NCBI GenBank assembly: GCA_043228905.1
Contig: JBHGNT010000015.1
Span: forward strand, 17,856,001 to 17,920,000
Direction of reading: 5' to 3'
DNA from: Azolla caroliniana
Lineage: Eukaryota; Plantae; Polypodiophyta
Length of the DNA stretch: 64,000 nucleotides
Part shown: positions 10,853 to 61,200 of the stretch, in pieces
Numbering within the stretch: the stretch's first letter is position 1
How the letters are laid out: every line of letters begins with the position of its first letter
Program-made: the position numbers and the translations under genes
The notes under the pieces: model-generated
What the model saw: only the letters and a program-made list of their open reading frames with translations
Databases searched by the model: none
What the model was told of the DNA's origin: nothing

Positions 10853-13725
10853 AGAGAATCTAGTTAATGTGGATTGAATAATGAAACGACAAATTATTTT
10901 TTTTCCAAAAAGCACTACTTCACATTAGTTAGCAAATATTATATAGCATAGTTTACTCGAATCCACAATGAAATCAATATATACAACTCGGAGGACCAAC
11001 TCCAAAACTATAAAAAAAAAACAACAAAAACTCACACGACCCTTAACTCCAACAAAACTGAAATAACCCTCATTTTACCCCAACTCTACTTCTCCGAACG
11101 AACTCTTTTATAACAAAGTTATCCGGGCAACGCAATTATGCTAACCCACTTGTGCTTTACCTATACATTAGTTAGTATAGTTACGTAACTTTTTCAAATA
11201 ATTAGATATCAAGGGTATTGATGACCTTTCCCAAAATGAAGCTACTTTCCCATTAGTTAGGTAAGATTATTACAAAGAGACTGTACAAGGAGGCTTAAGC
11301 ATAGATCGGGGAATCCCCCTCCGATCAAGTCCTAGAAATTGAGACTAGTTACATCGCCTTTCGGACGGACTACTTAGTGTAAGTACCTATAGCTAAAACA
11401 GTGCCCTGTAGTGATGGCTAGTATGAGACAACTCTTGGGGTCGACAACAGAGGGAGGGTGGTAAGTGAGCCGGAAACAACTAGCGTGGGGGCTAGTAGTT
11501 CCACCTCGGGCCACTTCCTCCTGGTGTCACCATAGGCGTGTTCCACCATTTCTGCCAAAAGCACAAACGAGGAATGGTTGCAAACCTCGGCCAATTGCCC
11601 TCGTAGGCAGCTAATAAGCGCAAATCATATGTCCATGCTCACTTCCTCCGAGGGTCGCACCAGATCCTGGAAGACCTTTAGGCAACGCACTTTCCATACG
11701 TACCACAGGGTGAAGCCTGCGATTAGCATCCAAATGTCCGGGAACCTAGGGGATGCGGACTTTAAGCCTCTCTCAAATCGAATCTTGGAGATTTTTCCTC
11801 GCATGCATACATAGCACCAACTATCCGCATTGAAGGCATCCGTCCACCTATCACCAGAATGATCAAGCCATGCCGCAACACTCCACGATGTTGTTCCTTC
11901 CACTTCACATGCCGCAAGGAGGCGAGTCACTCTATCCCATACCTTTTGAGCGTGAGGGCAAGCCCATATGCAATGCCTCAAAGTCTCAATAGGTGAATGG
12001 CAAAATGGGCAGCCTAACGGGCCGCCACGTTTACCTAGCCATTCGCCAACTGGGACCACATTATGCCCGATTTGCCACCAAAAAAACTTTATCTTTTCCG
12101 GCAAGTGGAGACGCCAGAGACCCTTCCAAAAGGTAATGAGCACCTTATTAGGGATGCCCAATGTACGCCAGCCATTGCATAAGGGGCCGTCTAGCTGCAA
12201 TTGAAAAGCCCGACCTAGTTTAGTGTTGTACTCAAAGAAATGGCGAAATCTGCCATCATGTTTCCACCTGAAATCCCCTGGGTCCCATTCTAGTTCGACG
12301 AGGGGACGACAACCATATACCCATAACTTCCAATGGGGTTCCACCTTAGCAACATCCAGGGCTGTCTTCCAGATGTTACCAACCTGCGCCACCACGCGGA
12401 TAGGGTGCCAAGAGCCCCTATTCTTACTCTCCCCAAAAATCCTATCTCTTTCCGATCCGCTCACGCCTTTCAGCGCCTTAACCCTTCCAGCTTCATCAAA
12501 GAGACCGAACCAAGCATCTTCTCTCACCTCCCCCATCAAAACCCTATCAACTGCCTCAGCTAGCAATCTCCACATTTTCATGGCTCCCTTGAGGGGAGGG
12601 AATGGGACCTCCTGGGCTCCTCCTAAAGCCACCATGCGTCTCCAATCATCTAAAGGGTGAAGCCTTGTTTGCGCCTGCTTTCCCCATGGTAGGCCCTTAA
12701 GCTGGCCTAACATCATGTCGTCACGTGTTCGCACCTAAGGGTTCCAAAATAATGGTTGTCTAGACCACTCGGTTAGTGTCTCTGGCGTGTGTTTGAACAA
12801 ATGATGTCGTACGTGACACCATGCCCACAAGATGGAGTTCGTGGCCCTCTCCTCCAGAAGACAAGCCATCTTGGGTGGGACGCCGCTCATGCAACACCAA
12901 TTCAAGGAGTCAGGCCAAGGCCTACCATACTTGGGAGTCCCTGCCTGCAACCTATTGCAAAGTAGAACCTTCCAACACCCCTTACCTGGCAAGAGGCAGA
13001 GAACCACCATTTTGGTTAGCAAAGCTCGACTCTGCATTAAGGGGTCTATGAGGCCAAGCCCACCTTTGGCCCGCGATTGTGTTAACCAATGCCATGACAC
13101 TCTAGTGGCAGCCATCAGGTTGTCCTTACCTGACCATATAAACCCCTTGATGGCAGCCTTAACCGCGTGCAAGCCTGAAGGGTCCATAATCCAACACGAG
13201 ACTGAGTGCCACATGGTGACGAGCATCACTTGGTTCGCAATAAGAACCCTACCAGCAAAGGATAGTTTAGACCTGCTCCATTGGTTCAACTTCTTGCTTA
13301 GTTTGGCTTGCACATGTGACAATTGCGCTCCCTTGGGGATTGCCCTCCCCATCGTAAATCTGAGGTACTTGAATGTCGTCCCGTCAGGGACCCATGCAAA
13401 ATCAGCATGGGGATGCCACCTTGGCTTCTCTTGTTCATTGAACCAGAGGCCTTGGGTTTTATCCCAATTGATCTTCGCACCGGCAGCCTGACAAAAAAAG
13501 GACCGTATCGTCGGCATATTTGCATCATCGCCCTACAAAAAAAGGACTGTATCATCGGCATATTTAGATAACAAAAGATCCTCAGTCGCATTGGGGATGG
13601 GCAATCCCCTTAGTCCGCTGCTTGGTGCTTGTAAGAAGGCTGAGAAAGCCTCGGTTACAAAGAGATAGAGATATGGGGCTAGGGGACAACCTTGCCTCAC
13701 TGAGCGATGTAGTTGGAAGGCGGGG

Positions 13726-14970: not shown

Positions 14971-15957
14971 AGGGTTTCGTATCTTAGGGCATGTTTGATT
15001 CCATACACCTAATTGTTGATTATTCTAATTAAATTTTAATTTCATAAGTATTGTTTCACTTATATGATTTTCTAGTAATTATTATTTACCCGCCCACAAT
15101 TAACTCTCCTTTTTTCACTTCCTTTTCATGTATAAAGTATTTACATCGTTTATTTTAATGTAACCTTTACGTGTAGACTATTTTTTCGTATGGAGTGGCT
15201 TGTTGAACGATTTATTTTTTTTCAACGGGTCATCTAGGTTTAACTCTTATCATCAAGCCTTAGAAAACGAGTAAAACCATATGAGTTCCCTTATTGATGT
15301 TTTACTCATGGATTTGAGTATTACATCTTTGTGCACAACACCGTCATCACTTGTATCAATTTGTGGCTTATGTCACAATTGTGCAAGTTATAACAATCAT
15401 ATTGGGATGTATATGTGCATACCTTGCACTTCCCATTTATTTGTGACATTGCTTTTTTCATAGGTAACACATGGGTTCTTTTTTTTTTTACCCTTGTTTT
15501 CGTCACTACTTAACTCTTATGAGTAGTGCCTTATTTTATCATTTTATCATCACGTTTGCTTATTGCTCGCAAGACTAGAATATTACTTGTGAGTGCACTT
15601 GTTTTTTCACGTAATACACTTTCTCGACCATATAATACATGATGGGTTGGCATTAATATAAGGCTATCTAGGAAATTTCATTGATGTAAGAACCATGGTT
15701 GAGCCTCAGGGAGCCGCCATGATTACTCAAGATAGAGATCCGAGAAATACATCTTAGCTATGTTTTCCCCCATGGTTTTTAAAACACCATAGTGTTACCA
15801 TAGTTATCGGATCTCGAATCACATCTCATATGTCTAGAGGGGTAAAGACATGAGATACTTTCTTGGATAAAGTTCTTTCAATCAAAATTTCAAGCATTCA
15901 TTTTGCTTGTGTATTTTCTGAACCTCCTTATTTTATTGCATACCCACAGCGTGCATC

Positions 15958-18900
15958 ATGGAACAAGTTTTGAACGCAGTTGGAACGATCTCTCCAAATG
16001 AGACCTCTCAACCCCAATCCGCATCTCGCACACAAGCTGAGATCACTATTGAGCAATTGCTCACTACTACCTTGAATCAATTGGCCGAAATGAGACAGGC
16101 CAATATGGCATTGGAAAAGAAATTCCAAGAATTAACTATTGAGTCCAAGAAAGAAGGTGAACCTTCCTTCGTAGTCACGCCTTTCAAGGGAGATAAGAAA
16201 GAAAGAACCGAGGAGGCCATTAGCACTTGGCTTGGTCGTTGGGAGTCTCACTTTGAGCTTCATCCCAAGCCCGATGTAGTAAAAATTGGTTATGTCGGTC
16301 GTGAGTTAGGTGGCCGAGCTGCTGCTTGGTGGCGTGGCCTAAGGACCGCAAAAAACTTACCCACAACTTGGGAAGGTTTCGTTGATGTTTTTAAGAAACA
16401 ATTCTTGCAGCCACCTTCTCAAACCGAACAAGCGCAACACTTGCTCACATTGTCTAGTAAGCCATTTACCTCTCTCGAGGATTATGTGCATCACGCTCGG
16501 ACCCAGATCCAAAAATCGGGACTTACGGGTGAGAAATGGTTTGTCGCTTGTTTTTTGAATGGTATTCCCAATGGGGATTATCATTGGATTGTCCATGACA
16601 AGGACCCCACAACTTTCGAGGAAGCCGTCAACATTGTGTTGCGATACCATAGGACTTCCAAGAAAGACCACAATAAACCTGAGTTCGCCAAAACTCCGAA
16701 TGTCAAGTTCATTGGGAAACGTAAGCAATCCAGTGACACTCTTGACCGCGACTCAAAGAAACCGAACCTCTTCTGTGCATATTGCAAGAAGCGGGGCCAC
16801 ACAAAGGATACCTGTCGTCGTCTTGAGAGGAAGTCAATGAACACCCCTCCTCAAGACAAATCTACGAGTCACACAGGTGAGTCTTTTGATATTGTTGAAG
16901 TTCATACCAATCACTTAAGTTTATGTGAATGCACTTTTCCTTCACATTTACTTAGACCTAATGATTTACTCCGAGCAGTCGGATATATCAATGGAACACA
17001 AGCACATTTCTTGTTTGATTCCGGTAGTTCTCACAATTTTCTTAATGATCACTTTGTGCAGCAAATGGAGCTCCACATAAACGCAAGTGATCATATCTAT
17101 CAAGTTCACATGGCAAATGGAAACGTTCAATACATCAGTGGCATTGTTTGTCAACTGCCAATTCAAATAGATACTTATTTGGAGAAGCTTGACTTTCATG
17201 TTATGAAATTACAATCCGCAGATGTCATTTTAGGATATCCTTGGTTTTTTAATAAAAACCCTTCTTTGTCCATTGATTGGGTTAATCACTCAATCACATT
17301 TGAACTTAATAATTGTAAACATTTTATTCAATGTTCCAAACTTCCTTCTCATTCACTTGTGTCTTCTAAATCTTTAAGTGAGTATTCTAGTTCATTAATT
17401 TATTCGTGTGTAATTGATCCTGCGGTTCAATTTTATTATTTTAATATTGACGCCACACAATTACCACATTTTGAGCAACGATTACTCGACTCTATTTTAG
17501 AGGATTTTCAAGATGTGTTTCCTACTGAATTACCGCTTACTTTACCACCTAAACGTAATGTGGACCATCAAATTGAACTCATCCCTGGGGCTGCTCCTGT
17601 GAGCATTCCACCTTACCGACTTAGTCGATTAGAAGAGGATGAGATCGCTAAACAACTTAAGGAATACTTGAGTATGGGCCACATTAGGTATAGTAAATCA
17701 CCTTGGGGTGCGCCAGTTCTATTAGTCAAGAAGAAGGAAGGTTCGTGGCGAATGTGTATCAATTATCGCCGTTTGAATAAAATGACAATTAAGAATGCAT
17801 ATCCATTACCTCATGCCGATGATTTGATTGATCGTTTGCACAGGGCTCGATATTTTACGAAAATTGACTTACGAACTGGTTATCATCAGATTCGCATCGC
17901 CGAGGATGATATTCCTAAAACCGCTTTTCGTACGCGCTATGGCCATTATGAGTTTTTAGTCATGCCGTTTGGGTTGACTAATGCTCCAGCCACATTCCAA
18001 CAAGCGATGAATGATGTTTTCCGAGATCAACTCGGTGATTTTGTTGTCGTCTTCTTGGATGATATTTTGATATATAGCCGTACCTTGCAAGATCATGTTC
18101 AACATGTTCGATTTGTTTTGCGAAAGTTGTGTGACAACTCTTTCTATGCAAAACATTCAAAATGTGACTTCTTCCAAAAATCTATTGTGTACCTAGGTCA
18201 TTTAATTACAGAAAATGGCGTTGAAATTGAACCTTCTCGTATTGAAAAGGTTAAACTTTGGCCCATTCCTCGTAATATTCGTGAACTTAGATCATTCTTA
18301 GGGTTTGTTGGATTTTTACGAAAATCAATTCGTAACTATCCCAAATTGACTACGCCATTAACTGACCTTTTAAAAGGTCATCCACGTAAGTCTGTCAAAC
18401 CAATTTCATGGAATGAACAACTTGACAAATCATTTGAGACACTCAAGGAGCATGTGTGTCAGGCTCCCACTCTTCTATTACCAGACCCTTCTAAGCCTTT
18501 CTCAATTGAAACCGATGCTAGTGATTATGCTATTGGTGCCGTTCTTTATCAAGGTGGTCACCCTATTGCTTTTGAAAGTAAGAAGCTTGATGCTACTCAA
18601 TCTCGGTATTCGGTTCAAGAGAAAGAGTTGTTTGCGGTGATACACGCACTTAAAACATGGAGGCACTATCTCTATGGAAATAAATTTGTGGTTACAACAG
18701 ACCATCAATCATTAGAGTATTTTTGTGACCAGTCCGATCTTGTTGGTCGTAAAGGCCGTTGGGCTGACCTTATGCAAGATTTTGATTTTTCCATATGATA
18801 TCGCAAGGGTTCTATGAACACCATTGCTGATGCTCTTAGTCGCATTAAAGAAGTTAACATGCTTAGCTTCACGGAAATAAAATCTGATCTTTTAGATCAC

Positions 18901-20361
18901 CTTCGAGGGAAATACCTTGATGACAGTTATTTCTCAAAATACTGGACGAAAGCCGAATCTGGTTTAGATGCCGATACTAGCACTCTACCCTCGAAGGCGA
19001 CCTTTCACATTACAAACGGTTTGCTCTACCGTAGTGGAAAGGTCTGTGTTCCAGATTTACCAAATGTTAAACAGAAATTTTTTCATGAATGTAATGATGC
19101 ACCATCTGCTGGTCATCCTGGAATACAATGCACACTCGTTCTCATCTCGTGTACTTTTTTCTGGCCTAAGATGCGCTTTGACGTGCATAAATACGTAACT
19201 CAATGCTTACAACGTCAGATTAATAAGTCGGAACGACTTAAAGCTGCTGGTCTTTTACATCCCTTAGATATTCCCAACAATAAATAGGAAAGTATCTCGA
19301 TGGATTTTATTGTTAGTTTACCTCGTACACAGAGGGGTCATGATGCCATATGGGTTGTCGTTGACAGGCTAACAAAATTAGCTAGATTTATTCCTACAAA
19401 AACCACGGTAACCGCTCAACAGTTGGCTTATCAATTTGTTGATGAGTTATTTCGTTTTTATGGATTACCGATGGATATTGTTAGTGATCGAGATTCCAAG
19501 TTTACTAGTGACTTTTGGACTCAGGTCTTTAAGAAACTAGAAACTACGTTGAGCATGAGTTCCGCAGATCATCCTCAGTCTGATGGACAAACTGAACGAG
19601 TTAATCAAATTATTGAGGACATGCTTCGAGCTTATGTAGCAAAAACCCCTTCTAAGTGGGAGCAATACCTTCCTATCTTAGAATTTGCCTATAATAGCTC
19701 TAAACATACATCCACTGGATATAGTCCTTTTATGTTGATGTATGGTTTTCAACCACGTGCCCCAGTTGATGTCACGATTCATCGTGATACATTAGACAGT
19801 ACACGCAATTTTTTGCAAGACATGAACCAAATGTTGCATATTGCCAAAGAAAATGTCAAGACAGCTCAAGATCGTGCTCGATTTTATGCTGATCAGGATA
19901 GACGTCCTCGTGCATTTACTATTGGTCAAAAAGTTTTTTTGCGTGTCCCGACTGATTCTACGTCATTATCTACGGGCAAGTGCGCTAAGTTAGCCCCACG
20001 ATATTGTGGCCCATTTGAAATCCTTAAGCGAGTTGGGTCATCTGCTTATCACCATGCCTTACCTCGTAACATTGGTATTCATCCTGTTTTTCACGTCAGT
20101 CGTCTAAAACCATTTTTAGGCTCTGGTGATAACACCATCACAATCCAAGATCTTGTAACATTAGAGGATTTTTCTTACAAACCTCATGTTCCTGAACGAA
20201 TTCTTGATTCTCGTACTAAACGTTTACGTTCTAAAGAGATTCGGCTATTCAAGATCAAATGGATGGATAAACCTATTGATGATGCCACATGGGAACGCGA
20301 GCATTCGCTTAAGGCACAATTTCCTCACTTTATATTGCAAGAGTGCAATCTTTTGAAGTAG
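15958..20361 (+). pseudogene. Gag-Pol polyprotein with chromodomain and two in-frame stops
   Basis: Single frame; Zn knuckle CAYCKKRGHTKDTC, PR LFDSGS, RT FLDD, RH TDAS, IN, chromodomain KIKW...ATWE; stops at 18796 and 19285. Confidence 0.93.
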
Positions 20362-24099: not shown

Positions 24100-24474
24100 T
24101 CAAATGGAGGACAAGCATTACAAGAAAAAGGAATACTCAAGAAGAAAGTGTATATTCACAAGTAGAATAGCAAATACAAAATGTAGCATTACAAGGAGTC
24201 ACAACCAACTTAGTATGAAGTATGAGGAGGGTGCTTTATATATAGTCACCCTCTCTCTTCATTAACTAACTACAACAACCACTCTCTCTTGGGGAATGTG
24301 AAGACTCATAGTCATGAGGAATATGTAACTCATTAGTTATGTGTCATAGAATATGATTCTATGACACATAGTTAATGTGTAGAGAGTAGTGGTGTGACTC
24401 TTGACCTTTGAGTAATCATAGATTCTCAAAAGGTGTGTTCACATGTTGCACTATGTTGAGCTTGATTCTTAACA
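24100..24474 (-). repeat. LTR fragment abutting copia B RT
   Basis: Ends CTTAACA where copia sequence starts; TATA-like TTTATATATAG; left end uncertain. Confidence 0.4.
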
Positions 24475-24814
24475 GTACTCCACACGTAGTGGTGTTGACT
24501 TATCAGTATGCCTTCTGGGGTGCAGATCACTTTGATCCTGAGGAAGTAATGAAGGTCCCCAAGATCCTTCATGTCAAACGATGCCGCAAGGTTGGACTTG
24601 ACGCGATCAATTTCGTCCAGGTCGGCGCCAACGATGACTAAATCATAAAGTAAAATGCTTACCAATCTGTGGCGACCTTGCTGAATGAACAGTGAAGAGT
24701 CTAACTTCAACATGGCAAACCCCATCCGACACAGTCGCTGCGTGATTTTCGCGTTCCAGGCACGCGGGGCTTGCTTGAGTCCGTAAAGGGACTTCTTTAG
24801 TCAACAAACGACCG

Positions 24815-25020
24815 ATGTGTTTAACAATCGGCAACGGTTCGATTTGAACCAAACCGATACGTGAAACCGTGGTTTCATGGTTTAATGGTTTCAACGGTTC
24901 GGCTCGGTTTGGTTCGGTTTCAATAGTCAAAAACCGCGGTTAAACCATTTTTTATTTTTTATTTTTTATTTATTTTTTAAAAAACTCTAAAACAAATCTA
25001 AAAAATTTTAAAAAATCTAA
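24815..25020. mobile_element. DNA-transposon (hAT/MITE-like) end fragment replacing part of copia B RT
   Basis: Clustered AACCG/CGGTT motifs followed by an AT-rich tract; about 200 bp of copia RT is missing here. Confidence 0.45.
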
Positions 25021-26739
25021 GCGTAGCCCTTTGCCACTAACCGGGCCTTGTACCGGTTGACGAAGCCATCGGTGTTGTATTTGACCTTGTATACCCACCA
25101 ACAACTAATTGGCTTCACTCTTGTCGATATGTCCACCAAGTCCCACGTCTCGTTTTCCGTGAGTGCGTGCATCGCTTCCTCCATGGCCTTCTGCTAGTTC
25201 AAATCCTTAGCCGCTTCTACGTAGCTTTCCGGCTCACACACGCTTGCCACCTTCACCATGTACGCATAATGATGCGCCATATACTCATTGTACCCTTACC
25301 TCTTCACGGGGTTTTTCTGGCAGGTGGATCGGCGTAACTTCTCGTTCGCCGATTGCAAGGCCCTCTTGATCGACTCGAACTTCGTCTTTGAAGATCTGTC
25401 TTTGTTTAGTCTGGAGTCGAATTCGCTCCGATCCGACTCTGCTTTGCCAGTGTCGTACTCCGGCATCTTCTTCTTCCCCTTTTCTTTGCGCGTGAACCGT
25501 CTCCTCAGTTCCTTGCATGGGGAGAGGACGGCCGAGTCATCACTACTCACCAGCAAATCATCCGGTTGACCACTCCGGATCAACCAGTCTGGATTCAGTC
25601 CACTCATCCAAAGGGAAGTCGAACTATCCGGCTGTTCGGATTCCGCGACGCTTCTCTCGGTTCCGGATTCGACTTGATCATCTACAACATTCGGTCCGGG
25701 CTCGGGTTTGGGTGGTGAGAAGTACCAAGATGCCGATTCATCAAAAACGACATCTCGATTGACTCGAACCGTTTTCAATCGGGCGTTATAGCACTTATAC
25801 CCCTTCTATTCATCCGAGTAGCTGACGAGAATGCACTTTTCGGCTTTCGCGTCTAACTTCCTCCGTTTTTCCTTCGGTACATGCACATATGCAATGCTAC
25901 CGACCACTCGAAGGTGTTCCAAATCCGGCTTCCACTCGACATACAGTTCGTGCGGCGACTGCGACACCTTTGTCCCTGAGGTAGATATCTGATTCTGTAT
26001 GTAGATAGCTATCTGAATTACTTCGGCCCAATAAAACTTGGGCATGCTTTTCTCCTCAAGCATCGCCCTTGCCACTTCTACCAGTATCATGTTTTGACAC
26101 TCGGCCATGCCATTCTACTCCGGCGTGTATCTGTAGAAGAATTCCCGGCGGATTCCCTTCATTTGTAGATAACTCGTTAACTGGCCTGGAAAAGTACTCT
26201 TTTCCACCATCCGATCTCAGACACTTGAACTTTCTTCCGAGCTCACGGTCGACAAGGTTCTTCAAATCCCGAAAGCACGAGAAGACTTCGCTTTTCTTCT
26301 TAGTTAGATAGATCCAAGTGTGTTGGGTGAAATCGTCAATGAAGGAGACGAAATACTGACTCCAGCCGATACTCACATTTTGTGTCAGACCCCACACATC
26401 CGAATGGATGAGATCGAGTTGATTCCGGCTCCAATTCTTCTCTTTTTTAAGATTGCTTAAAGTGTGCGGCACTTCATCGGGGGTTGTTTGGGGTGGACTC
26501 AAGTTTAGATCTTATTTGTATGTCTAAACATAAGTAGTGATATAGTTTTAGAAGAATAGAAAAGTGAGGGCGTGGGTGGGGGTTAGGGGAGTGTAGCTTA
26601 TTGAAGTTATCAAAAGTATTTAAACCTAATCAAAGCTTTTAGAACATATTAAAGATCATTGGGATAACTTAAGTTATTAGACACCAATAAAGTACTATTA
26701 AAACACCAATATAGCATATTATTAAAACGGGACCACACG

Positions 26740-27296
26740 CTTAGATGAACGGGAGTTGTTTAAACACACGCTTAAGCAAACACTTAAAAGAAAGATTATT
26801 ATAAAAAAATAGAAATAAAAATAGAAAAGAGAGATTGAGATTAAAAAATGATTATGGTTAAGAAGGGATTATGATTAAGGGGGAAGGGGTTGCTAAACAA
26901 AGTACTTAAATGAATGTTTAAACAAATATTTAGATAAGAAAACACTTGGGCAAACACTTAACGCAAGGTTATGATTAAAAGAGAAGGGAGGGATTATGGT
27001 TAAAGAAAAGGGGTCATGGTTGAGAAGAGAATGATTATGATTAAGAGAGGAGAATACTTAAACAAATGTTTAAACAAAAAGTTAAACCTAAAAATGATTG
27101 AACAAGTACTTAAAAAAAAGGGGGTTAAACAAGTACGTAATAAAAATGATTATTAAACAAGTACTTAATAGCAAATGATTAAATAAATACTTAAAAACTT
27201 AAGACAAAAAAAAAAAATTGATAAAAAAGTGATTAAACAAGTACTTAATAAAAATTTATTAAATAAGTACTTAAGAACTTAAGACAAAAAATTAGA
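26740..27296 (-). repeat. AT-rich degenerate tandem repeats in the PLE 3' UTR
   Basis: Recurrent AAACAAGTACTTAA and GATTATG(A/G)TTAA motifs. Confidence 0.7.
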
Positions 27297-27345
27297 TAAG
27301 AGCAACACATAGAAGGAAAGAAAGTTTTACTATCATAAGGCAACG

Positions 27346-27391
27346 ATCGGCAAATGCATTTCGCCTCGATGGAGGCTCTTCAGTGCCCGAT
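27346..27391 (-). ncRNA. Minimal type I hammerhead ribozyme
   Basis: Minus strand ATCGGGCA CTGAAGA GCCTC CATC GAGGC GAAA TGCA TT TGCCGAT: CUGANGA and GAAA core, 5-bp stem II, palindromic stem III, stem I with one bulge. Confidence 0.85.
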
Positions 27392-27553
27392 GTACAAATG
27401 ATGAAAACTAAGCCTACTAGGTTGCTCTTTTTATAGGGAGAGGGAAGAGAGTCCTTTGTATGTGGGACATACAAAAGTGTGTACAAAGGGAAGGTAAAAG
27501 AGTGTACACAAGACTTTAGGTGGGGGTTAAGAGGGGTGAGAGTACATAAAACA

Positions 27554-28888
27554 TTAGGTGGGGGGAAAGGATGCGTGTACTAGGTGGTTTCTTAGTTTTT
27601 TACCATTTAGCCAACACGTGAGAGGGGGTGTAAGGGAACTGTATTGTGGTTGTCCTAGAAGGGGTTTAAGTTTGTTTCTCACGAGCGCTCCGATTTGGAG
27701 TTTTTTGATACATGGGGAGTAACGAAGCTTAAAAACAATGGGTGGAGGTTTTTTGTTGTTGGGTTGGTTAGAGAGTAGTTGGTTTCGTATGGAGTAGGGG
27801 ACGGTCGAAAAACACTTGAGTAGGAACTTCGATGGGTAGCCCCTAGCTCTTAGGCGGTCGTAGAACTTTTTGCGTAGTTCCATGTAGCCATTTTCCGAGC
27901 TCTCCCGGATAGCATACCGTTTTAGTTCTCCCGTGATGAAGCCCTTTTTGTGTGCTATGGGGTGCGAGGATTTCCACGGGAGGTACATGTAGGCATTGAG
28001 AGGTTTTTGGTGGCATGCGGTGTCGAGGATGCCGAATTCTTTAAAGTATGGGCCTTTGAAGAGGACGACGTCTAGGATGGTGATCTCTTTAGGGGAGGTT
28101 GTTGATTCAATACAGATGTGTTGTTGTAGAGGCACGCCGTATTGGTGTAAGAAGGTGTGAAGTGTATCGGGGGAACCTTCCCAAACTCCTATGGCATCAT
28201 CGATGTAGCGTTTGTAGTAGAGTAGTTGCGGTGTTTGGAAAGCTAGGTTGTCGTCCTCTAGCTGTGAAAGAAACAAGCAAGCGTAAACAACGGCAAAATT
28301 ACTACTCATCGCAGTGCCTTTAATTTGTAACCAAAAAGCATTATTAAAGGAGAGAAAATTGTTTCTAAGTATAAGTTCGGCAACACTCATAATGATTTTG
28401 GTTTTGTGTGGTGGGAAATGATGTGAAATAGATTTTTTAAAAACCAATAGACCTTCCGTGGTAGGTATACTGGGATATAGTGACACTACGTCAAAAGAAA
28501 GCAACATGCAAGTTTTGGGGAAGGTGTGGTGTGCTAGGTCCTTAACAAGTGTTAAGGAGTCTTTGAGGTGTTGTTTTTTAGACAATAAGACAGGATGTAG
28601 TAGATGGTGTAGCCATTTAGAGGCTCTTTCGAAAACATAATTGTTGTAGGCGCAAATAGGGCGTCCTACAACAATGGGCTTGTGGATTTTGGGGATGATG
28701 TAGAAACGACATATCCTGAAACCATGTTTGGGTTTCTGAAGGAGGAATCTAATTTCCTCATTGGAGAGGTGGGGGGAAGCTTTCAGACATAGGTGTTCAA
28801 GTCGACTGTGGAGAGTTTCTAGGGGGACATCTTTGACGGGGGTGTAAGTGTTTTTGTCGTTGAGTTGTCTAAGGCATTCGTTAAGGTA
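27554..28888 (-). CDS. Penelope-like reverse transcriptase (partial, open frame, no C-terminal GIY-YIG)
   Basis: Motifs FYIIPKIHK...GRPI, SFDVVSLYPSIP, QIKGTAM, YKRYIDD, HPIAHKKGFITGELKRY, RLRARGYP; stop after LVHASFPPT. Confidence 0.88.
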   Translation of the reverse strand, partial: YLNECLRQLNDKNTYTPVKDVPLETLHSRLEHLCLKASPHLSNEEIRFLLQKPKHGFRICRFYIIPKIHKPIVVGRPICAYNNYVFERASKWLHHLLHPVLLSKKQHLKDSLTLVKDLAHHTFPKTCMLLSFDVVSLYPSIPTTEGLLVFKKSISHHFPPHKTKIIMSVAELILRNNFLSFNNAFWLQIKGTAMSSNFAVVYACLFLSQLEDDNLAFQTPQLLYYKRYIDDAIGVWEGSPDTLHTFLHQYGVPLQQHICIESTTSPKEITILDVVLFKGPYFKEFGILDTACHQKPLNAYMYLPWKSSHPIAHKKGFITGELKRYAIRESSENGYMELRKKFYDRLRARGYPSKFLLKCFSTVPYSIRNQLLSNQPNNKKPPPIVFKLRYSPCIKKLQIGALVRNKLKPLLGQPQYSSLTPPLTCWLNGKKLRNHLVHASFPPT

Positions 28889-30460
28889 CCAATTCTTCTC
28901 GTTAGGGAACGGAAGCCTATATTGCTTCCCGAGTTGGCAAGCTTCACAAATTTGGCCTTTTCGGCCATTGAACTTCGGCAGTCTAGAAACTACGTGTTCC
29001 GACTGCATGTCCTGAAGCTTCTGGAAGTTGATGTGGCCAATCCGCTTATGCCATATGTCGATGTCCAACTCAACCTTTTTCCCTTTTGTGAACATAGCGG
29101 TGCCAACATCATTCGTTTCGAGGATAAACATCCTCTCGTCTGATCGCCCTTGCACAATAACTTTGCCCTCTTCTTCAATGAAGCACCCGAGGTGCATGAA
29201 CCGAACATAAAGACACCAAAATAGGCAAACCACCCCCCATTGTTCCAGTTTTTCTAAATAGGCAAACCACTCTGAGTGGCTTGTCATATGGTTTGACTCT
29301 CCGAAATCAACATACCATACCTCGTTCAGTTTCAAGGTTTTTTTCTTCATCGAGTTAGCCTTGTGTTTCATCACAAAGGTTGGGCTCGATCCATTTCCAA
29401 AACCGAAACCTTCCAGTCCTTCAGAGTAGTGTGAGCTTTGCCGGCTTCCCCGTCCGGCCTTGCCGGATCCGGTCTTGCTTTCCAACACTCGCTTTCTCTG
29501 TGGCCCTTCCAGCCATAGTACCAACAATCCACCGTAATCTTCTCTTGCCAGTTTCCGACGCCACTTTGACTCCCCTTGCTTGTGGAGGGTCCGGAACTGT
29601 TGTCGACACCATCATTGTGCCTCCGATTTTGCTCTTGTTGACTGCTTCCACCGCTGTCAATCCGCCTCGTCTACCACGACCACGGGGCAAATCTGCCTCC
29701 ATGTACAGCATCTTGTTGTCAGTGTGTGTGCTCGTCCTCTACTAGGAGCATCGACAGTAATTCGAAAAATGAGGGTGTATTCTCCCTTGTACAAATCGTT
29801 GTCTGGAATACTCCGAACTTCAACGTTGGGCCCCTGAGACAGACCTGCACCATCTCATCTTCCTGGACGGTCACGTTGATATAATCAAGTGAGTCGTAGA
29901 TGTCTTTGATCTGGGCCTTATAGTCGGTCACCGACATGTCCTTCTATCGGACATTGCTCAACTCCTGTCAGAGTTGTAGCTTCCGAGTTGTGGTGCTTGC
30001 GGCGATGACCTTCTTCAGGTTTCCCCAAGCTTCCTTTGGCGTCTTGGCGTCCCGGATATGGCTCAACAATTGATCGTTGACGTTGGACGCAAAGTAGTAC
30101 ATAACTTTGCTTGTTGCTTGTTCCCAAGCCGGGAAGTCCCTGTGTGCCACATCAGGTGCCATATCGTTAGCTCTGTCGACATAACTCCAGTAATCGTGCC
30201 CGAGCAGGTACTGGTGCATCTTGTACAACCAAGATACATAGTTGGATCTATCGAGCTTCTTCATCAGGAGCAAGCTAGCCATTCCTCGGTCCATGTTTTT
30301 CTTCTGTCTATTTGTACCGAGTGTTAGGGTTTGTCTTCAGAAAATGCTTGTCGGCTGCAAAGGTTCTCAACCCTTGTGCTCTAATATCATGTAAAAGAAT
30401 ACGATTCCGGAAGCTAAGAAAAAACCGGCTCGTCCGGATAGCTAAAGAATATAAACACAG

Positions 30461-54433: not shown

Positions 54434-55846
54434 TTATACTCCACTGTTAGTAGTAGTGGTAGTGATGGTGCCGGTGGTGGAAGATGGGAGGGGTTCACGG
54501 CGGAAGATGGAGCGGAACTTTTCGGAGACAGATGCGGGCGTCATGTCCGGGAGACAGAAGAGGATATGGACCCCCAAAGAGAATGCGAAGCCGATGGCGG
54601 CGCTCGAGGTTGCGATTGACATGGCCGCGGACCCTATCACGACGAAAGAGTCGGCCCTCTTCGTCTGATCCCGGCATGCCATCGCCAGCTCCAATCCCGC
54701 GTAGAAAAGAAGGACCCCGAGAATGCCGACAGGGTAGGCATCCAGCAATTTCACCAATGAGCTCCCGAGGAGAAGGCCCAGCAGGACCTTGAGGCCACCC
54801 AGGAACACGACGGCGGCACCGCTCCTGGCGCCGAACCGCCATTGGCCTGCGAGCCCGCCGGCCCCGTGGCATGCCGGCATGGCCCCGAACCAGCAGCCGA
54901 CAAGATTCATGAGGCCCACGGAGACCGAGACCTTGGTGGTGCTCACCGCGCTCTTCTTGTCGGGGTAGAGATCGCCCGCGAGCTTGCATACGGCCACCAC
55001 GGAATTGAGGACGGAGAGAGGGATCTGTGGAATTGCAGCACGCAAGAAACCTCTGCGCCACTCGCTGGCGGCGATGTGGGAGTAGACGATCGGCTTGGCG
55101 GGGCCGAAGCTGAGCGAGCTGAAGACGCTGGGCTTCCGGATGATGGCGAGCACGAGGCCGACAATGAAAACGATGATGGCTGTGGGGACGCGTTGGAGGC
55201 GACGGCGCCACGCCGACGACGATGGCTGCTTCTCAGTGTCAGTGGTGTCCGTTGGAAGGTCGTGGTCGGGCGGCGGAGGGCCGGATCCGCCCACCACCAC
55301 GATGAAGCAGAACATGAGGAGCGCCACCAGCATGCCGTCCAGCCCTATCCAATCCCTGTTGCCTTTCGTCTTCCCCGTCGTGAAATTCTGGTTCTTCAGC
55401 ACGTATTTCACTCCCGTGATGGCGAAGGAGAGCCCCTGCGACAGCTGGATGCCGCGAACCACGGGCAGCGGCACCAGCCGCTGCACGACGTACATGAGGC
55501 CCGTTGCGCCCAGCCCGAAGAGGAGGGCCGATGTCGTGATCCCGGCCGCCATGATCTCGGAGAGCGTGAGCCGCTCCGAGATGGCAACGGCCGCGATCGT
55601 CTTCATTGGCTGGACGGGCATGGGCACGCCAAAGCCGATGCCGGTGATGATGTTGTAGGCGCCCGTGAAGATGAGCGTGGTGCCGAGGTCGAGGCCGTTG
55701 GCGAGCGCGAGCGCGACCACGATGGGCACGAATGTGCCGAGGTCGCCCAGCGCGCCGCTCATCTCCATCCACACCGACTTGTACGCCATGTTTCCTCGCG
55801 CCTCCGCCACCAGGGCCTTCTTATCCCAACCCCTCTTCATCATCAT
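54434..55846 (-). CDS. MOT1: Molybdate transporter, MOT1 family, 470 aa, intronless
   Basis: Family motifs GALGDLGTFVP, PMPVQPMKTIAAVA, PLPVVRGIQLSQG, QIPLSVLNSV, FGAMPACHGAGGLAGQWRFGARSG; many hydrophobic helices; MOT1 versus MOT2 paralog identity not resolvable. Confidence 0.95.
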   Translation of the reverse strand: MMMKRGWDKKALVAEARGNMAYKSVWMEMSGALGDLGTFVPIVVALALANGLDLGTTLIFTGAYNIITGIGFGVPMPVQPMKTIAAVAISERLTLSEIMAAGITTSALLFGLGATGLMYVVQRLVPLPVVRGIQLSQGLSFAITGVKYVLKNQNFTTGKTKGNRDWIGLDGMLVALLMFCFIVVVGGSGPPPPDHDLPTDTTDTEKQPSSSAWRRRLQRVPTAIIVFIVGLVLAIIRKPSVFSSLSFGPAKPIVYSHIAASEWRRGFLRAAIPQIPLSVLNSVVAVCKLAGDLYPDKKSAVSTTKVSVSVGLMNLVGCWFGAMPACHGAGGLAGQWRFGARSGAAVVFLGGLKVLLGLLLGSSLVKLLDAYPVGILGVLLFYAGLELAMACRDQTKRADSFVVIGSAAMSIATSSAAIGFAFSLGVHILFCLPDMTPASVSEKFRSIFRREPLPSSTTGTITTTTTNSGV

Positions 55847-56399
55847 GTTCTTCTTCTTTGGTTTGTGTTAACTTCCTCTCTTTGCTCTTCCCACAGCCTT
55901 GTTTCTCTCTAAACAAAAAAAAGCAAAAAATAATGTGTTTTGGTTGATGATTGATGATTTGCTGTGAGAAGGGATCCAATTTTCCAAATACAAACACACA
56001 CTTAAATACAGGATCCTCTAGTTGACTTTACTATTCCCATTCCACTCTTTTTTAATCTTTTATTCCTCTTACTTAGTACGTTGTGTACTACCACATATAT
56101 TTTCATTACCCTTTTATGCCGCAAACGTCGTCGGCACATTCGTATCTTCCAAAGTCTCTGGCATTATTAATTACATCACAAATGTGATCGATCGCTCCCT
56201 CTACCGTGTCTAGAATGCCCCGATTCTTAGATTATATTTCATCTTAATATTAGTAAGGCTCTACTAATCTTACATGATCAAAATCTTCATTGGAACTATA
56301 TGCTACATAAATAATTGTCCTATCCATCCTCCTTATTTTTTGTTTATCAAGTTGTATTCCACATTTCTTAACTTGCTTTTTTTTCTTTACCGTTATTGA

Positions 56400-58262: not shown

Positions 58263-61200
58263 TGTTGAGCGGCAAGCTCAACCGGAGCCGGATCGGCTGA
58301 ATAAGCTGTAGCCGGTAAGCGAGATGGATCGGGCGAAACGGATCGGTATGACGGTGAGCAACCGAACCGGCAAGCAGTGGTGGCCGGGTGCAATCCATAA
58401 CCGGAAGTCCAATCGGAAGCCTAGTATAGGATAGACTACTAGGTAGCTATAGTCTCGTAGTAAGTGTCAGATGATCGTGTGAGCACTGAAGTACATGGTA
58501 CTTCTGTCAGTCCCAAGAGGACTTGTATAAATAGTGCTACTTAGCACAGTGTGTAGACAAAGTCTTGATATAATTTTGAAATTGTGTTCTGCTGTGTGTG
58601 TGTGTGTGTGTGTGTGTGTTGTTCTCTGTTTTACGCTTCCGCAAACACTTACGTTTACATGGTATCAGAGCGCGAGGGTTGAGAACCTCTGCTGTAGACA
58701 TTTACTCTTGAGAAGAAAACCCTAACAGGTCGAAAACAGACACAGTAGAAGACATGGATAAAGGCATGGCTACGTCGCTCTCGGTGGAAAAGCTCGACAG
58801 GAGCAACTACGCATCCTGGTCTTACGAGATGCACCAGTACCTGCTTGGACACGGGTACTGGAGTTATGTCGAAGGAGCGAATGATGCGGCGCCAGACTCG
58901 ACACACAAGGACTTCTCGGTATGGGAACAAGCGGCAAGCAGGGTGATGTACTGCTTCGCATCCAGTGTCGGCGATCAGCTGCTCAGCCACATCCGTGACG
59001 CCAAGACACCGAAGGATGCTTGGGGGAACCTGAAAAAGGTTTTCGCCGCAAGCACCAGTGCCCGGAAGCTGCAACTCAGACAGGAGTTGAGCAATGTTCG
59101 ACAGAAGAACATGTCCATGGTAGACTACACGGGCCGGATAAAGGAGATTTGCGACTCACTCGCCTCTATCAATGTTACCGTAGAGGAAGACGAGATGGTG
59201 CAGGTATGTCTCGGAGGCCTGACGTCCAAGTTCGGAGCGTTCCAGACTGCGGTGTGTACAAGGGAGAATACCCCCTCATTCTTCGACTTACAATCGATGC
59301 TCCTTGTAGAGGAGAACCACGTCGGTGCATCTACCAGTGCATCCCCGGACAGCCGAATGCTGTACACGAGAACGGATCGGTTCCGTGGGCGTGGTGGAAG
59401 AGGTGGGTTGGCACGCAATGGAGGCGGCCGGCAAGAGCAGGAACGAAGGCACTATGAGCGTGCCGACAGCAGTTCTGGGACTTCCACAAGCAGGGGGAGT
59501 CAAGGCGGTGCCGGAGGCCGGCAAGACAAATCTGCTACGGAATGCTGGTACTGTGGCAAAAAAGGCCACAGGGAAAGCGAGTGCTGGAGAAAGTGTGCCG
59601 ATTCAGACAGATCCGGATCCGGCAAGACCGGTAAGGATGGCCGACAAAACTCGCACTACGCAAACGGATCAGGAGGATCCGGAACCGGAAAGGCCGGTAA
59701 GGGGCCAGCCTTGGTGATGAATCACAAGGCAAACTCAATGAAGAAGACCACTTCCAAAACGGAGGAAGTGTGTTATGTTGATTCCGGCGCGTCGAACCAC
59801 ATGACGAGCCACAAAGAGTGGTTCTCCTTTCTGGAGAAACTGGATCAACCAGGAGTAGTCGAAATTGGAGACGACACTCCTCACCCAATCGTGCACGTCG
59901 AAGAAGTCCCTCTAAGCCACGTCGGACAGAAAGGGAAGCTGATGAACGTATTACACGTTCCGACAATCACGAAGAACCTGGTGTCCGTCAGTCAGATTGT
60001 CGACCTGGGGATGCACGTGCGGTTTACGCACCTTGGGTGCTTCATTGAGGATGAGGGCGAAGTCATTGCGCAAGGGCGCAGAGACGGGAGGATGTTTATC
60101 CTCAACACCAATGACTTAGGCACCGCTCTGTTCGCGGAACGACAGAAGGTCGAGTTGGACATCGACCTGTGGCACAAGCGGATAGGCCACGTCAACTACC
60201 GGAGGCTTCAAGATCTGCAAACGAAACATGTCATTTTCGGTTTGCCGAAGTTCAACGGCCGGAGAGCCGAAATTTGTGAAGCCTGCCAACTTGGGAAGCA
60301 ACACCGGCTTCCATCCCCCACCGAATGGAACCGGAGCCGTAACAAGCTCGATCTCATCCATTCGGATGTGTGGGGACCAGCACAAAGTGTAAGCCTTGGC
60401 GGGAGCCGGTACTTCGTCTCCTTCATCGACAACTATACTCGACATACTTGGATCTACCTCATTGAGCGGAAGAGCGAAGTCTTCGACTGTTTCCGGAGCC
60501 TCCAGAAGATGGTGGAACGGGAATCGGAGAGGAAGATCAAATGCCTTCGGTCGGATGGCGGAAAGGAATATTTTTCCGGCCAATTCACTAGTTATCTGCA
60601 GCAGAAGGGAATTCGGCGAGAGTTCAGCTGCAGATACACATCGGAGCAAAACGGTGTGGCCGAAAGGAAGAACCGAACACTCGTCGAAGCGGCAAGGACA
60701 ATGCTGGAGGAGAAGAGCATGCCCCGGTTCTACTGGGCGGAGGCGGTCCAGACGACCGTCTACATACAAAACCGCATTGGTGACAAGGTGTCAGCTCATG
60801 AGCTATATTTCGGGCGCAAGCCGAACTTAAGACACCTTCGGATATTCGGCAGCATAGCGTATGTGCATGTGCCGGATCAGAAGCGGAGAAAGCTGGATGC
60901 AAAATCGGAAAAATGCATCCTAGTCGGCTATGCTCAAGAGCAAAAGGGGTATAAGTGCTATAACCCCCGGATGAAGGAAGTCCGAGTTAGCCGGGATGTC
61001 GAGTTCGATGAATCGGCATCTTGGTACTCCGTACCGACTCTGACTTCCGATCCCGACCCAATGCCGGAAGATCAGGCCAATGAGCCTGAATTAGCCCTGG
61101 CAGAGGATGATGAAGCCGGGACTCAAGATGAGAGTCCAGAATCGTTACGGTTGAGTGGACCGAACGAGCGACTGAGTCGGTTGGACCAGTCGGATGAAGA

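What the first reader, a model, noticed from the sequence alone, without database searches (positions are those of the whole stretch)
26431..28900. Penelope-like retroelement in a land plant with TSD, A-tail and no C-terminal endonuclease
Seen: a 2.45-kb insert bounded by a 12-bp TSD (CCAATTCTTCTC), an A6 tail, an uninterrupted PLE-type RT that stops right after the thumb region, a 1.1-kb 3' UTR and a hammerhead. Known: canonical PLEs carry GIY-YIG C-terminal to RT, whereas the Chlamys group of green algae and Selaginella has it N-terminal, and PLEs are patchy in land plants. Inference: this is either a Chlamys-like lineage whose N-terminal endonuclease was lost by 5' truncation, or an endonuclease-less PLE mobilised in trans (the purine-rich target and A-tail resemble LINE-type insertion). 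The open frame inside a decayed copia suggests recent activity.
Basis: partly seen in the sequence, partly recalled or inferred. Interest (0 to 1): 0.85.

Follow-up and report, generated by a model that had tools for sequence, protein, structure and literature searches.

The report
Nuclease-free Penelope element inside a chromosome
This is a front-truncated copy of a plant Penelope-like jumping gene whose whole family has no detectable DNA-cutting enzyme; such elements are known mainly from chromosome ends, but this copy sits inside another transposon with a clean 12-base target duplication, likely because it was pasted into a break made by something else.

Summary
The insert is real: 2,446 bp on the minus strand, an exact 12-bp TSD, a 444-codon Penelope-type RT frame, a 1,111-bp 3' UTR and a hammerhead, inside a copia element. 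It is not Chlamys, and no lost endonuclease was found. The near-complete unit of the family (L001, 98.9% identical, about 5.2 kb) has a helical ORF1, a predicted -1 frameshift and an RT ending at the same residue. It has no GIY-YIG, CxC or IFD. The RT groups with Selaginella, conifer and Ginkgo endonuclease-less elements (Coprina/Sm type, described as telomere-associated). The family forms head-to-tail chains, and a sister family ends in (CCCTAAA)n. The A6 is templated, not a poly(A) tail. The 5' junction has 8/9-nt microhomology. The copy is young but decaying (motif-B Gly to Ser). The less usual point is an internal, TSD-flanked insertion by a nuclease-free PLE, likely primed by a staggered break made by another agent. 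It is the only TSD case I could verify. Three key papers were not held. The scan had no earlier finding on similar DNA. Verdict: new member of a known kind, interest 0.48.

The parts
26431..26442 (+). TSD copy at the element's 3' end; its 3' end on the + strand is the inferred primer for first-strand cDNA
   Evidence: exact match; empty-site test; primer role inferred
26443..26448 (-). A6, the templated 3' terminus of the unit (not a poly(A) tail)
   Evidence: same A6 at the L002 tandem junction; other copies stop at 26442/26443
26460..26480 (-). conserved 3'-terminal hairpin preceded by a hammerhead-core-like CCGAUGA; function unknown
   Evidence: kept in L002, L003 (twice) and L004; weak fold, z -1.5
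26443..27553 (-). 3' UTR, 1,111 bp, AT-rich with degenerate short repeats
   Evidence: aligns to L001
27346..27391 (-). type-I hammerhead motif with palindromic stem III (predicted to need a dimer)
27554..28888 (-). 5'-truncated ORF2: PLE reverse transcriptase and thumb, no endonuclease, no start codon; motif-B Gly to Ser
28889..28900 (+). TSD copy at the 5' junction; 28889-28897 is 8/9 identical to the element's own sequence (microhomology)
24426..30336 (-). decayed copia host element (RT, integrase, gag-pre-integrase pieces), interrupted at the start of integrase
   Evidence: Pfam RVT_2, rve, gag_pre-integrs; ORFs; ends approximate

Best explanation
This is a 5'-truncated copy of a two-ORF Penelope-like element with no detectable endonuclease, from the Selaginella/conifer endonuclease-less (Coprina-type) group, that was likely reverse-transcribed by the family's own RT into a staggered DNA break made by some other agent, leaving a 12-bp duplication inside a copia element. 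Shown: the family anatomy (ORF1, ORF2 in the -1 frame, hammerhead motif, head-to-tail chains, fixed A6 end), no endonuclease hit, the TSD and the 5' microhomology. Inferred: an intact unit is transcribed and makes ORF1 plus an ORF1-RT fusion by -1 frameshifting at A AAA AAC. The RT normally primes on exposed 3' ends such as telomeric overhangs or the end of an earlier copy. Here a break with 12-nt 3' overhangs supplied both primers. One overhang started cDNA at the A6 end. The other annealed to the cDNA through 8/9 matching bases, which fixed the 5' truncation and primed the second strand. Who made the break (a LINE or other element's nuclease, or host repair or recombination nicks) is not known.
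For: L001 is 98.9% identical over 2,383 nt and has ORF1 (655 aa) plus ORF2. ORF2 lies in the -1 frame in 15 of 15 loci where both ORFs overlapped, among 22 examined. An AAAAAAC run sits at the junction in 14 of those 15, with a downstream hairpin of z -4.2 to -6.9 in 4 of 4 folded. A GIY-YIG profile hit 69 of 398 proteins and 6 of 82 DNA sequences (81 loci plus the window), but none of L001-L074 or the window. Pfam finds GIY-YIG in control P0087 but not in ORF1 or ORF2. The ORF1 core model is four helices (pLDDT 87.5), with no PDB match at E<=0.001. The RT sits in a 17-row endonuclease-less branch with Selaginella, Cryptomeria, Ginkgo and Picea (SH-aLRT 98; FastTree 0.998). Tandem junctions appear in run X2, L002, L003, L007, L008, L010 and L012. 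L017 ends in (CCCTAAA)n where L007 runs on into the next unit. An 8/9 match to the target end occurs at only 2 of 5,159 positions of L001. Family ORF2 has 203 synonymous vs 75 non-synonymous codon differences (L001/L003).
Against: Only one TSD-flanked copy is verified; the junction scan of 27 related loci gave no convincing TSD. No host genome was available, so the internal position rests on the 64-kb context and telomere attachment was not shown for this exact family. Frameshifting, ribozyme cleavage and RT priming are all untested. A 12-bp TSD with a purine-rich target is also what LINE machinery would leave (established knowledge, recalled). The tree has no Chlamys, Naiad, Athena, fungal Coprina, LINE or TERT rows, and the IQ-TREE run is the quick search only.
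Confidence: 0.7

Rival explanations
1. The element's RNA was copied wholly in trans by a LINE ORF2 protein (its endonuclease and RT), like a processed pseudogene.
For: 12-bp TSD, 5' truncation with microhomology, pyrimidine-rich primer strand and an A-rich end. A LINE-type remnant (zf-RVT) lies in the window at 11625-13532.
Against: The A6 is templated and matches the tandem junction length. Loose-end consensus sequences at 26443 in X7, X10 and X6 do not extend the T run. The family has its own selected RT.
Confidence: 0.14
2. A piece of DNA (cDNA, or a stretch of a tandem array) was captured during double-strand-break repair, with no target-primed reverse transcription at this site.
For: 5' microhomology of 8/9 nt; 1 base shared at the 3' junction; tandem arrays exist as donors. 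L020 also has a microhomology junction in a copia gene and no TSD.
Against: The 3' junction falls exactly at the unit end, as in other copies with different flanks. DNA capture would not be expected to favour that point.
Confidence: 0.1
3. The family has its own unrecognised nuclease, in ORF1 or in ORF2.
For: The clean TSD needs staggered nicks. ORF1 has no known relatives outside the family.
Against: The conserved ORF1 core is all long helices with no strands. The rest is proline-rich and poorly conserved across 11 ORF1s. ORF2 ends 96 residues after RGYP, close to Selaginella (99) and Cryptomeria (101).
Confidence: 0.05
4. It is a Chlamys-type element whose N-terminal GIY-YIG was lost by 5' truncation.
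For: Plant host; no C-terminal endonuclease; this copy is 5'-truncated.
Against: The full unit has no GIY-YIG in six frames and no CxC. It has no IFD: RT3-RT4 spacing is 55 aa against 57-58 in two C-terminal-EN references. Its motif B equals the 'Selagine1' row and differs from the Chlamys and Naiad rows of Craig et al. Fig. S1.
Confidence: 0.01

Closest known systems
Selaginella moellendorffii telomere-associated endonuclease-less PLEs (Sm1/Sm2, placed in Coprina; Gladyshev and Arkhipova 2007, not read; cited through PMC13159263, PMC4209133, PMC12477314)
   Same: RT 42% identical to Selaginella XP_024523476 and in the same branch; family motif B identical to 'Selagine1'; DKN motif; no endonuclease; type-I hammerhead with helices I-III; head-to-tail chains; C-rich telomeric repeats at 3' ends of sister families.
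   Different: This copy is internal with a 12-bp TSD. In this family the telomere-complementary end is reduced to A6, and the hammerhead lies 0.9 kb from the 3' end. Telomere attachment is not shown for this family.
Endonuclease-less PLEs of conifers (Pinus taeda, Picea abies; Lin et al. 2016, not read; listed in review PMC9033089)
   Same: Cryptomeria, Picea and Ginkgo proteins are 41-48% identical and fall in the same branch with no GIY-YIG.
   Different: Their insertion sites, TSDs and ORF1 were not examined here; whether the 2016 paper reports TSDs is unknown to me.
Two-ORF endonuclease-less PLEs: Athena and fungal Coprina-1_Alen (PMC8557442 Fig. 1 legend; PMC13159263)
   Same: Coiled-coil-type ORF1, frameshift before the RT ORF, DKN motif, 4-6 kb size, chains.
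   Different: Different hosts. Coprina-1_Alen is at chromosome ends in 13 of 13 copies of its isolate. No Athena or fungal sequence was in my tree.
Chlamys PLE-X (endonuclease-less, Chara and Selaginella; PMC8557442)
   Same: No endonuclease yet non-telomeric insertion; hammerhead present. The paper leaves open how they insert.
   Different: PLE-X has CxC and a CxCX1-8C extension, and in Selaginella targets 28S rDNA. This family has no CxC, no IFD and a copia target.

Membership tests
Penelope-like elements | PLE-type RT with N-terminal HNLS/GxKF-like and DK(G/N) motifs and thumb | tested here: met
   closest endonuclease-bearing relatives are GIY-YIG PLEs. LINE and group II RTs were not put in the tree.
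Endonuclease-less PLEs, Coprina/Selaginella Sm group | No GIY-YIG or other endonuclease in the full unit | tested here: met
   the profile was built from 19 Neptune-like ENs and could miss a very divergent nuclease
Endonuclease-less PLEs, Coprina/Selaginella Sm group | RT groups with the Selaginella elements | tested here: met
   (P0017); by-eye match to 'Selagine1'. That this row is Sm1 is my inference; no fungal Coprina row was available.
Endonuclease-less PLEs, Coprina/Selaginella Sm group | Hammerhead motif in the 3' region | tested here: met
   19 of 23 closest loci; covariation; cleavage untested
Endonuclease-less PLEs, Coprina/Selaginella Sm group | 5' truncation and head-to-tail chains | tested here: met
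Endonuclease-less PLEs, Coprina/Selaginella Sm group | [quoted passage not shown] | tested here: inconclusive
   Seen for sister family L017/L007 and as short CCCTAAA at L003 ends. Not seen for this family's 3' end; this copy is internal; short contigs cannot show a chromosome end.
Two-ORF endonuclease-less PLEs | Coiled-coil ORF1 and frameshift into the RT ORF | tested here: met
   (sequence and model only; frameshifting not assayed)
Chlamys/Naiad (incl. PLE-X) | N-terminal GIY-YIG | tested here: not met
Chlamys/Naiad (incl. PLE-X) | CxC motif upstream of RT | tested here: not met
Chlamys/Naiad (incl. PLE-X) | Insertion-in-fingers domain | tested here: not met
Chlamys/Naiad (incl. PLE-X) | Placement in the Naiad/Chlamys RT clade | not tested
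   no Chlamys or Naiad sequence came from a search tool
Penelope/Poseidon (Dryad), Neptune, Nematis, Hydra | C-terminal GIY-YIG | tested here: not met
   all intact family proteins stop at the same residue

The most novel reading that the evidence does not exclude
This plant family of nuclease-free PLEs has left the telomere niche and spreads through the genome routinely, with regular TSDs, by parasitising staggered nicks made by another element's endonuclease or a host enzyme while using its own RT. It would be an autonomous RT with a borrowed cutter, and a tractable answer to how endonuclease-less PLEs reach internal sites.
Probability: 0.3. Interest if true: 0.72.

Novelty: new member of a known kind. 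Interest (0 to 1): 0.48.

Why it matters
PLE RTs are the sister group of telomerase, and the nuclease-free ones are described as generally restricted to chromosome ends. Craig et al. (PMC8557442) state that it is unknown how nuclease-free PLE-X families insert genome-wide. A young family with intact full-length copies and at least one clean internal TSD insertion offers a system to test whether a telomerase-like RT heals internal staggered breaks, and which enzyme supplies them. The data also show a diverse, under-annotated plant branch of these elements with a conserved frameshift signal. If the census shows this copy is a one-off, it is an ordinary stray of a known group.

Tried and rejected
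No host genome was held, so no copy census, TSD table or telomere test was possible. Rfam found no hammerhead at E<=1, and single-sequence folding gave no signal; these were set aside because a descriptor and covariation worked. Pfam had no hit on the truncated RT. The viral collection gave no relative. The prokaryote genome collection gave 4 distant loci at 26-32%, probably eukaryotic contigs in bins (inference). The sequencing-run search listed no RNA holder, which says nothing on expression. Contig depth was not used as a copy number. The TSD scan of 27 related loci gave four 7-9-nt candidates at alignment edges inside elements, rejected as chance. A single-sequence ORF1 model was poor (pLDDT 59) and was replaced by an alignment-based one. 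ORF1 searches found only the family itself or weak helical look-alikes at 0.90 or below. The careful IQ-TREE search did not finish; the quick tree is used. The host's lineage was not established (one search found no cluster for the MOT1 gene). Telomere priming of this copy was rejected: the primer strand ends in TTCTTCTC, not a G-rich repeat. Earlier scan notes: none by sequence; by words only notes on Penelope stubs and fold-backs whose closest known kind is endonuclease-bearing, not used. [quoted passage not shown] 2017 and Lin et al. 2016 were not held. PMC4700185 had nothing relevant.
Full report
Observation. The 12-mer CCAATTCTTCTC is exact at 26431-26442 and 28889-28900. Three matches at up to one mismatch were found in the window, against 0.47 expected. 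Between the two copies lie 2,446 bp, read on the minus strand: a stop-free 444-codon frame (28888-27554) with no start codon, a 1,111-bp UTR and six A's. The frame continues upstream into a copia gag-pre-integrase piece, and integrase and RT pieces follow downstream. Removing the insert and one 12-mer restores the copia reading frame. The restored site aligns at 74-77% to three other copia copies in the window. The TSD is therefore a real duplication.

The family. A protein search returned 366 relatives. The best, P0002 (577 aa, 99%), and its intact cluster mates end at the same residue as the window frame, so no C-terminal domain was lost from this copy. A metagenome scan returned 77 loci. 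L001 (5,171 bp) is 98.9% identical to the insert over 2,383 nt and extends 2.8 kb further 5'; it lacks the last 72 bases of the 3' end, which L002 supplies. L001 holds ORF1 (655 aa from the ATG) and ORF2, open in the -1 frame. Among 22 loci examined, 15 had both ORFs overlapping, and all 15 were in the -1 frame (some are near-copies, such as L007/L017 and L009/L018/L021). Fourteen of the 15 show an AAAAAAC run at the junction; L005 does not. In L001 the run is in the canonical A AAA AAC phase, and the four junctions folded have hairpins at z -4.2 to -6.9. This predicts an ORF1-RT fusion of about 1,250 aa; it is untested.

No endonuclease. A profile built from 19 C-terminal GIY-YIG segments hit 69 of 398 proteins. 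In six frames it hit 6 of 82 DNA sequences (81 loci plus the window), all distant loci (L075-L078, L080, L081), and none of L001-L074 or the window. Pfam found GIY-YIG in the control P0087 but not in ORF1 or ORF2 at E<=1. In a search of longer proteins (69 hits), the best hit with a GIY-YIG annotation was 32% identical; the closest long hit, from Ginkgo (41%), has none. The conserved ORF1 core across 11 families models as four helices, three of them long, with no strands (pLDDT 87.5). It has no PDB match at E<=0.001, which fits a coiled-coil rather than a nuclease.

Placement. FastTree on 126 of 361 usable proteins and a quick IQ-TREE on 45 put the window RT in an endonuclease-less branch with Selaginella, Cryptomeria, Ginkgo and Picea proteins (0.998; SH-aLRT 98). 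A Closterium group lies just outside. This branch sits in a wider endonuclease-less set next to Neptune-like sponge elements, which matches the statement in PMC8557442 that Coprina groups weakly with Neptune. The trees lack Chlamys, Naiad, Athena, fungal Coprina, LINE and TERT rows. Chlamys is excluded by features instead: no CxC, no IFD (spacing 55 aa vs 57-58 in two references) and no N-terminal GIY-YIG. In Fig. S1 of that paper, the 'Selagine1' row has the same motif B as this family and differs from the Chlamys and Naiad rows (by eye). PMC13159263 lists Selaginella Sm1 and Sm2 as Coprina-type. A review lists endonuclease-less PLEs in Selaginella, Pinus and Picea (PMC9033089). A land-plant host is supported by the tree and a MOT1 gene; the lineage was not determined.

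Hammerhead. Rfam missed it. A strict type-I descriptor found it on the sense strand in 24 of 82 sequences (81 loci plus the insert), on the antisense strand in 0, and in 0 of 460 mononucleotide shuffles. A relaxed descriptor found it in 19 of the 23 closest loci. On 15 aligned motifs, 96.4% of cells pair and 6 of 11 pairs change on both sides. Slid controls pair 28-39% (the structure was named by me and the sequences are related). The four bases of stem III stay palindromic, as described for dimeric hammerheads (PMC4209133), and that paper reports canonical hammerheads in the Selaginella elements.

Ends. In run X2 the contig that covers the 3' end continues into a sequence matching the first bases of L001. 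L002 shows the same junction with A6. The family therefore forms head-to-tail chains and the A6 is templated. Chains are also seen in L003, L007, L008, L010 and L012. In sister family L017 the unit end runs into (CCCTAAA)n up to the contig end, while the same end in L007 runs into the next unit, the polarity expected for attachment to plant telomeric repeats. For the window's own family this was not seen. Loose ends at 26443 with other, non-telomeric flanks occur in 3 of the 4 runs (4, 3 and 1 contigs; consensus only, agreement 0.55 and 0.63 for the first two). L004 and L003 also end in unrelated flanks. This hints that dispersed copies are not rare, but no second TSD was found in 27 related loci. 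At the 5' junction the target matches the element at 8 of 9 bases, which occurs at 2 of 5,159 positions of L001. A microhomology 5' junction is reported for a rotifer Penelope copy (PMC3846280).

Age. The copy differs from L001 at 11 of 1,335 coding bases: 6 synonymous and 5 non-synonymous, including the motif-B glycine. Eight of the 11 are C-to-T or G-to-A. Between subfamilies, synonymous changes dominate (55 vs 27; 203 vs 75). The copy is young and decaying, and lacks ORF1 and a start. L001 may come from another individual or species.

Mechanism (inferred). A TSD means both strands ended in the 12 duplicated bases, that is, a break with 12-nt 3' overhangs. Exposed 3' overhangs are the proposed natural primer of nuclease-free PLEs (PMC6431247, PMC13159263). 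I propose that the family's own RT started on one overhang at the A6 end, and that the other overhang paired with the cDNA by microhomology and primed the second strand (0.7). Rivals are full LINE mobilisation (0.14), DNA capture in repair (0.1), a hidden nuclease (0.05) and Chlamys (0.01). The source of the break is open.

Literature seen. PMC8557442: parts 1-6 of 10 of the text, supplement parts 1 and 54 and search rows. Passages only: PMC4209133, PMC12477314, PMC13159263, PMC3846280, PMC9033089, PMC6431247, PMC4700185. [quoted passage not shown] 2017, Lin et al. 2016; these and their supplements may already describe internal copies or TSDs. Ten searches (listings only) showed no paper on TSD-flanked internal Coprina-type insertions in plants, which is weak evidence given those gaps.

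Verdict. A real, young, truncated member of a known group of endonuclease-less plant PLEs, with a two-ORF frameshift layout also known for the group. The internal TSD-flanked insertion is the part worth following up. Novelty: new member of a known kind; interest 0.48.

Noticed in passing
window 28901-28907: GTTAGGG, a telomere-like word, follows the right TSD directly on the + strand. It is part of the copia coding sequence, and TTAGGG/CCCTAA occur 34 times in 64 kb. Post hoc and possibly chance.
   Followed up: partly
L003:1437-1452; loose end at window 26521 in runs X7 and X10: Telomere-like repeats next to junctions in the polarity opposite to telomere capping; unexplained, perhaps an inverted copy of the 3' tail or insertion at internal telomere-like repeats.
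   Followed up: no
window 26460-26480: Conserved 3'-terminal hairpin after a CCGAUGA word, like half a hammerhead core, kept in L002-L004; it may define the fixed 3' end.
   Followed up: partly
L020:660-690: A sister-family copy joins a copia RNase H gene through a microhomology that is also in frame (ALS/NIEAKY); no TSD seen.
   Followed up: partly
ORF1 of L007, L008, L010-L017: Runs of (CCCTAA)n inside ORF1 encode Asn-Pro repeats: telomere-like DNA used as coding sequence.
   Followed up: no
protein P0183: A Picea glauca protein named as a mitochondrial gene (KUM45112) belongs to this PLE branch; likely nuclear sequence in that assembly (inference).
   Followed up: no
proteins P0012, P0141, P0142, P0144, P0176-P0182: Several Cryptomeria and JGI members share the same longest-contig length, which suggests tandem arrays in gymnosperms too.
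   Followed up: no
window 54434-55867 (-): Single open frame for a MOT1-type molybdate transporter (Pfam PF16983).
   Followed up: partly
window 11625-13532 (-); 15922-20361 (+); 58712-63473 (+): A LINE remnant with zf-RVT, a gypsy-type element and a nearly intact copia relative (the last two named from their translations only).
   Followed up: no
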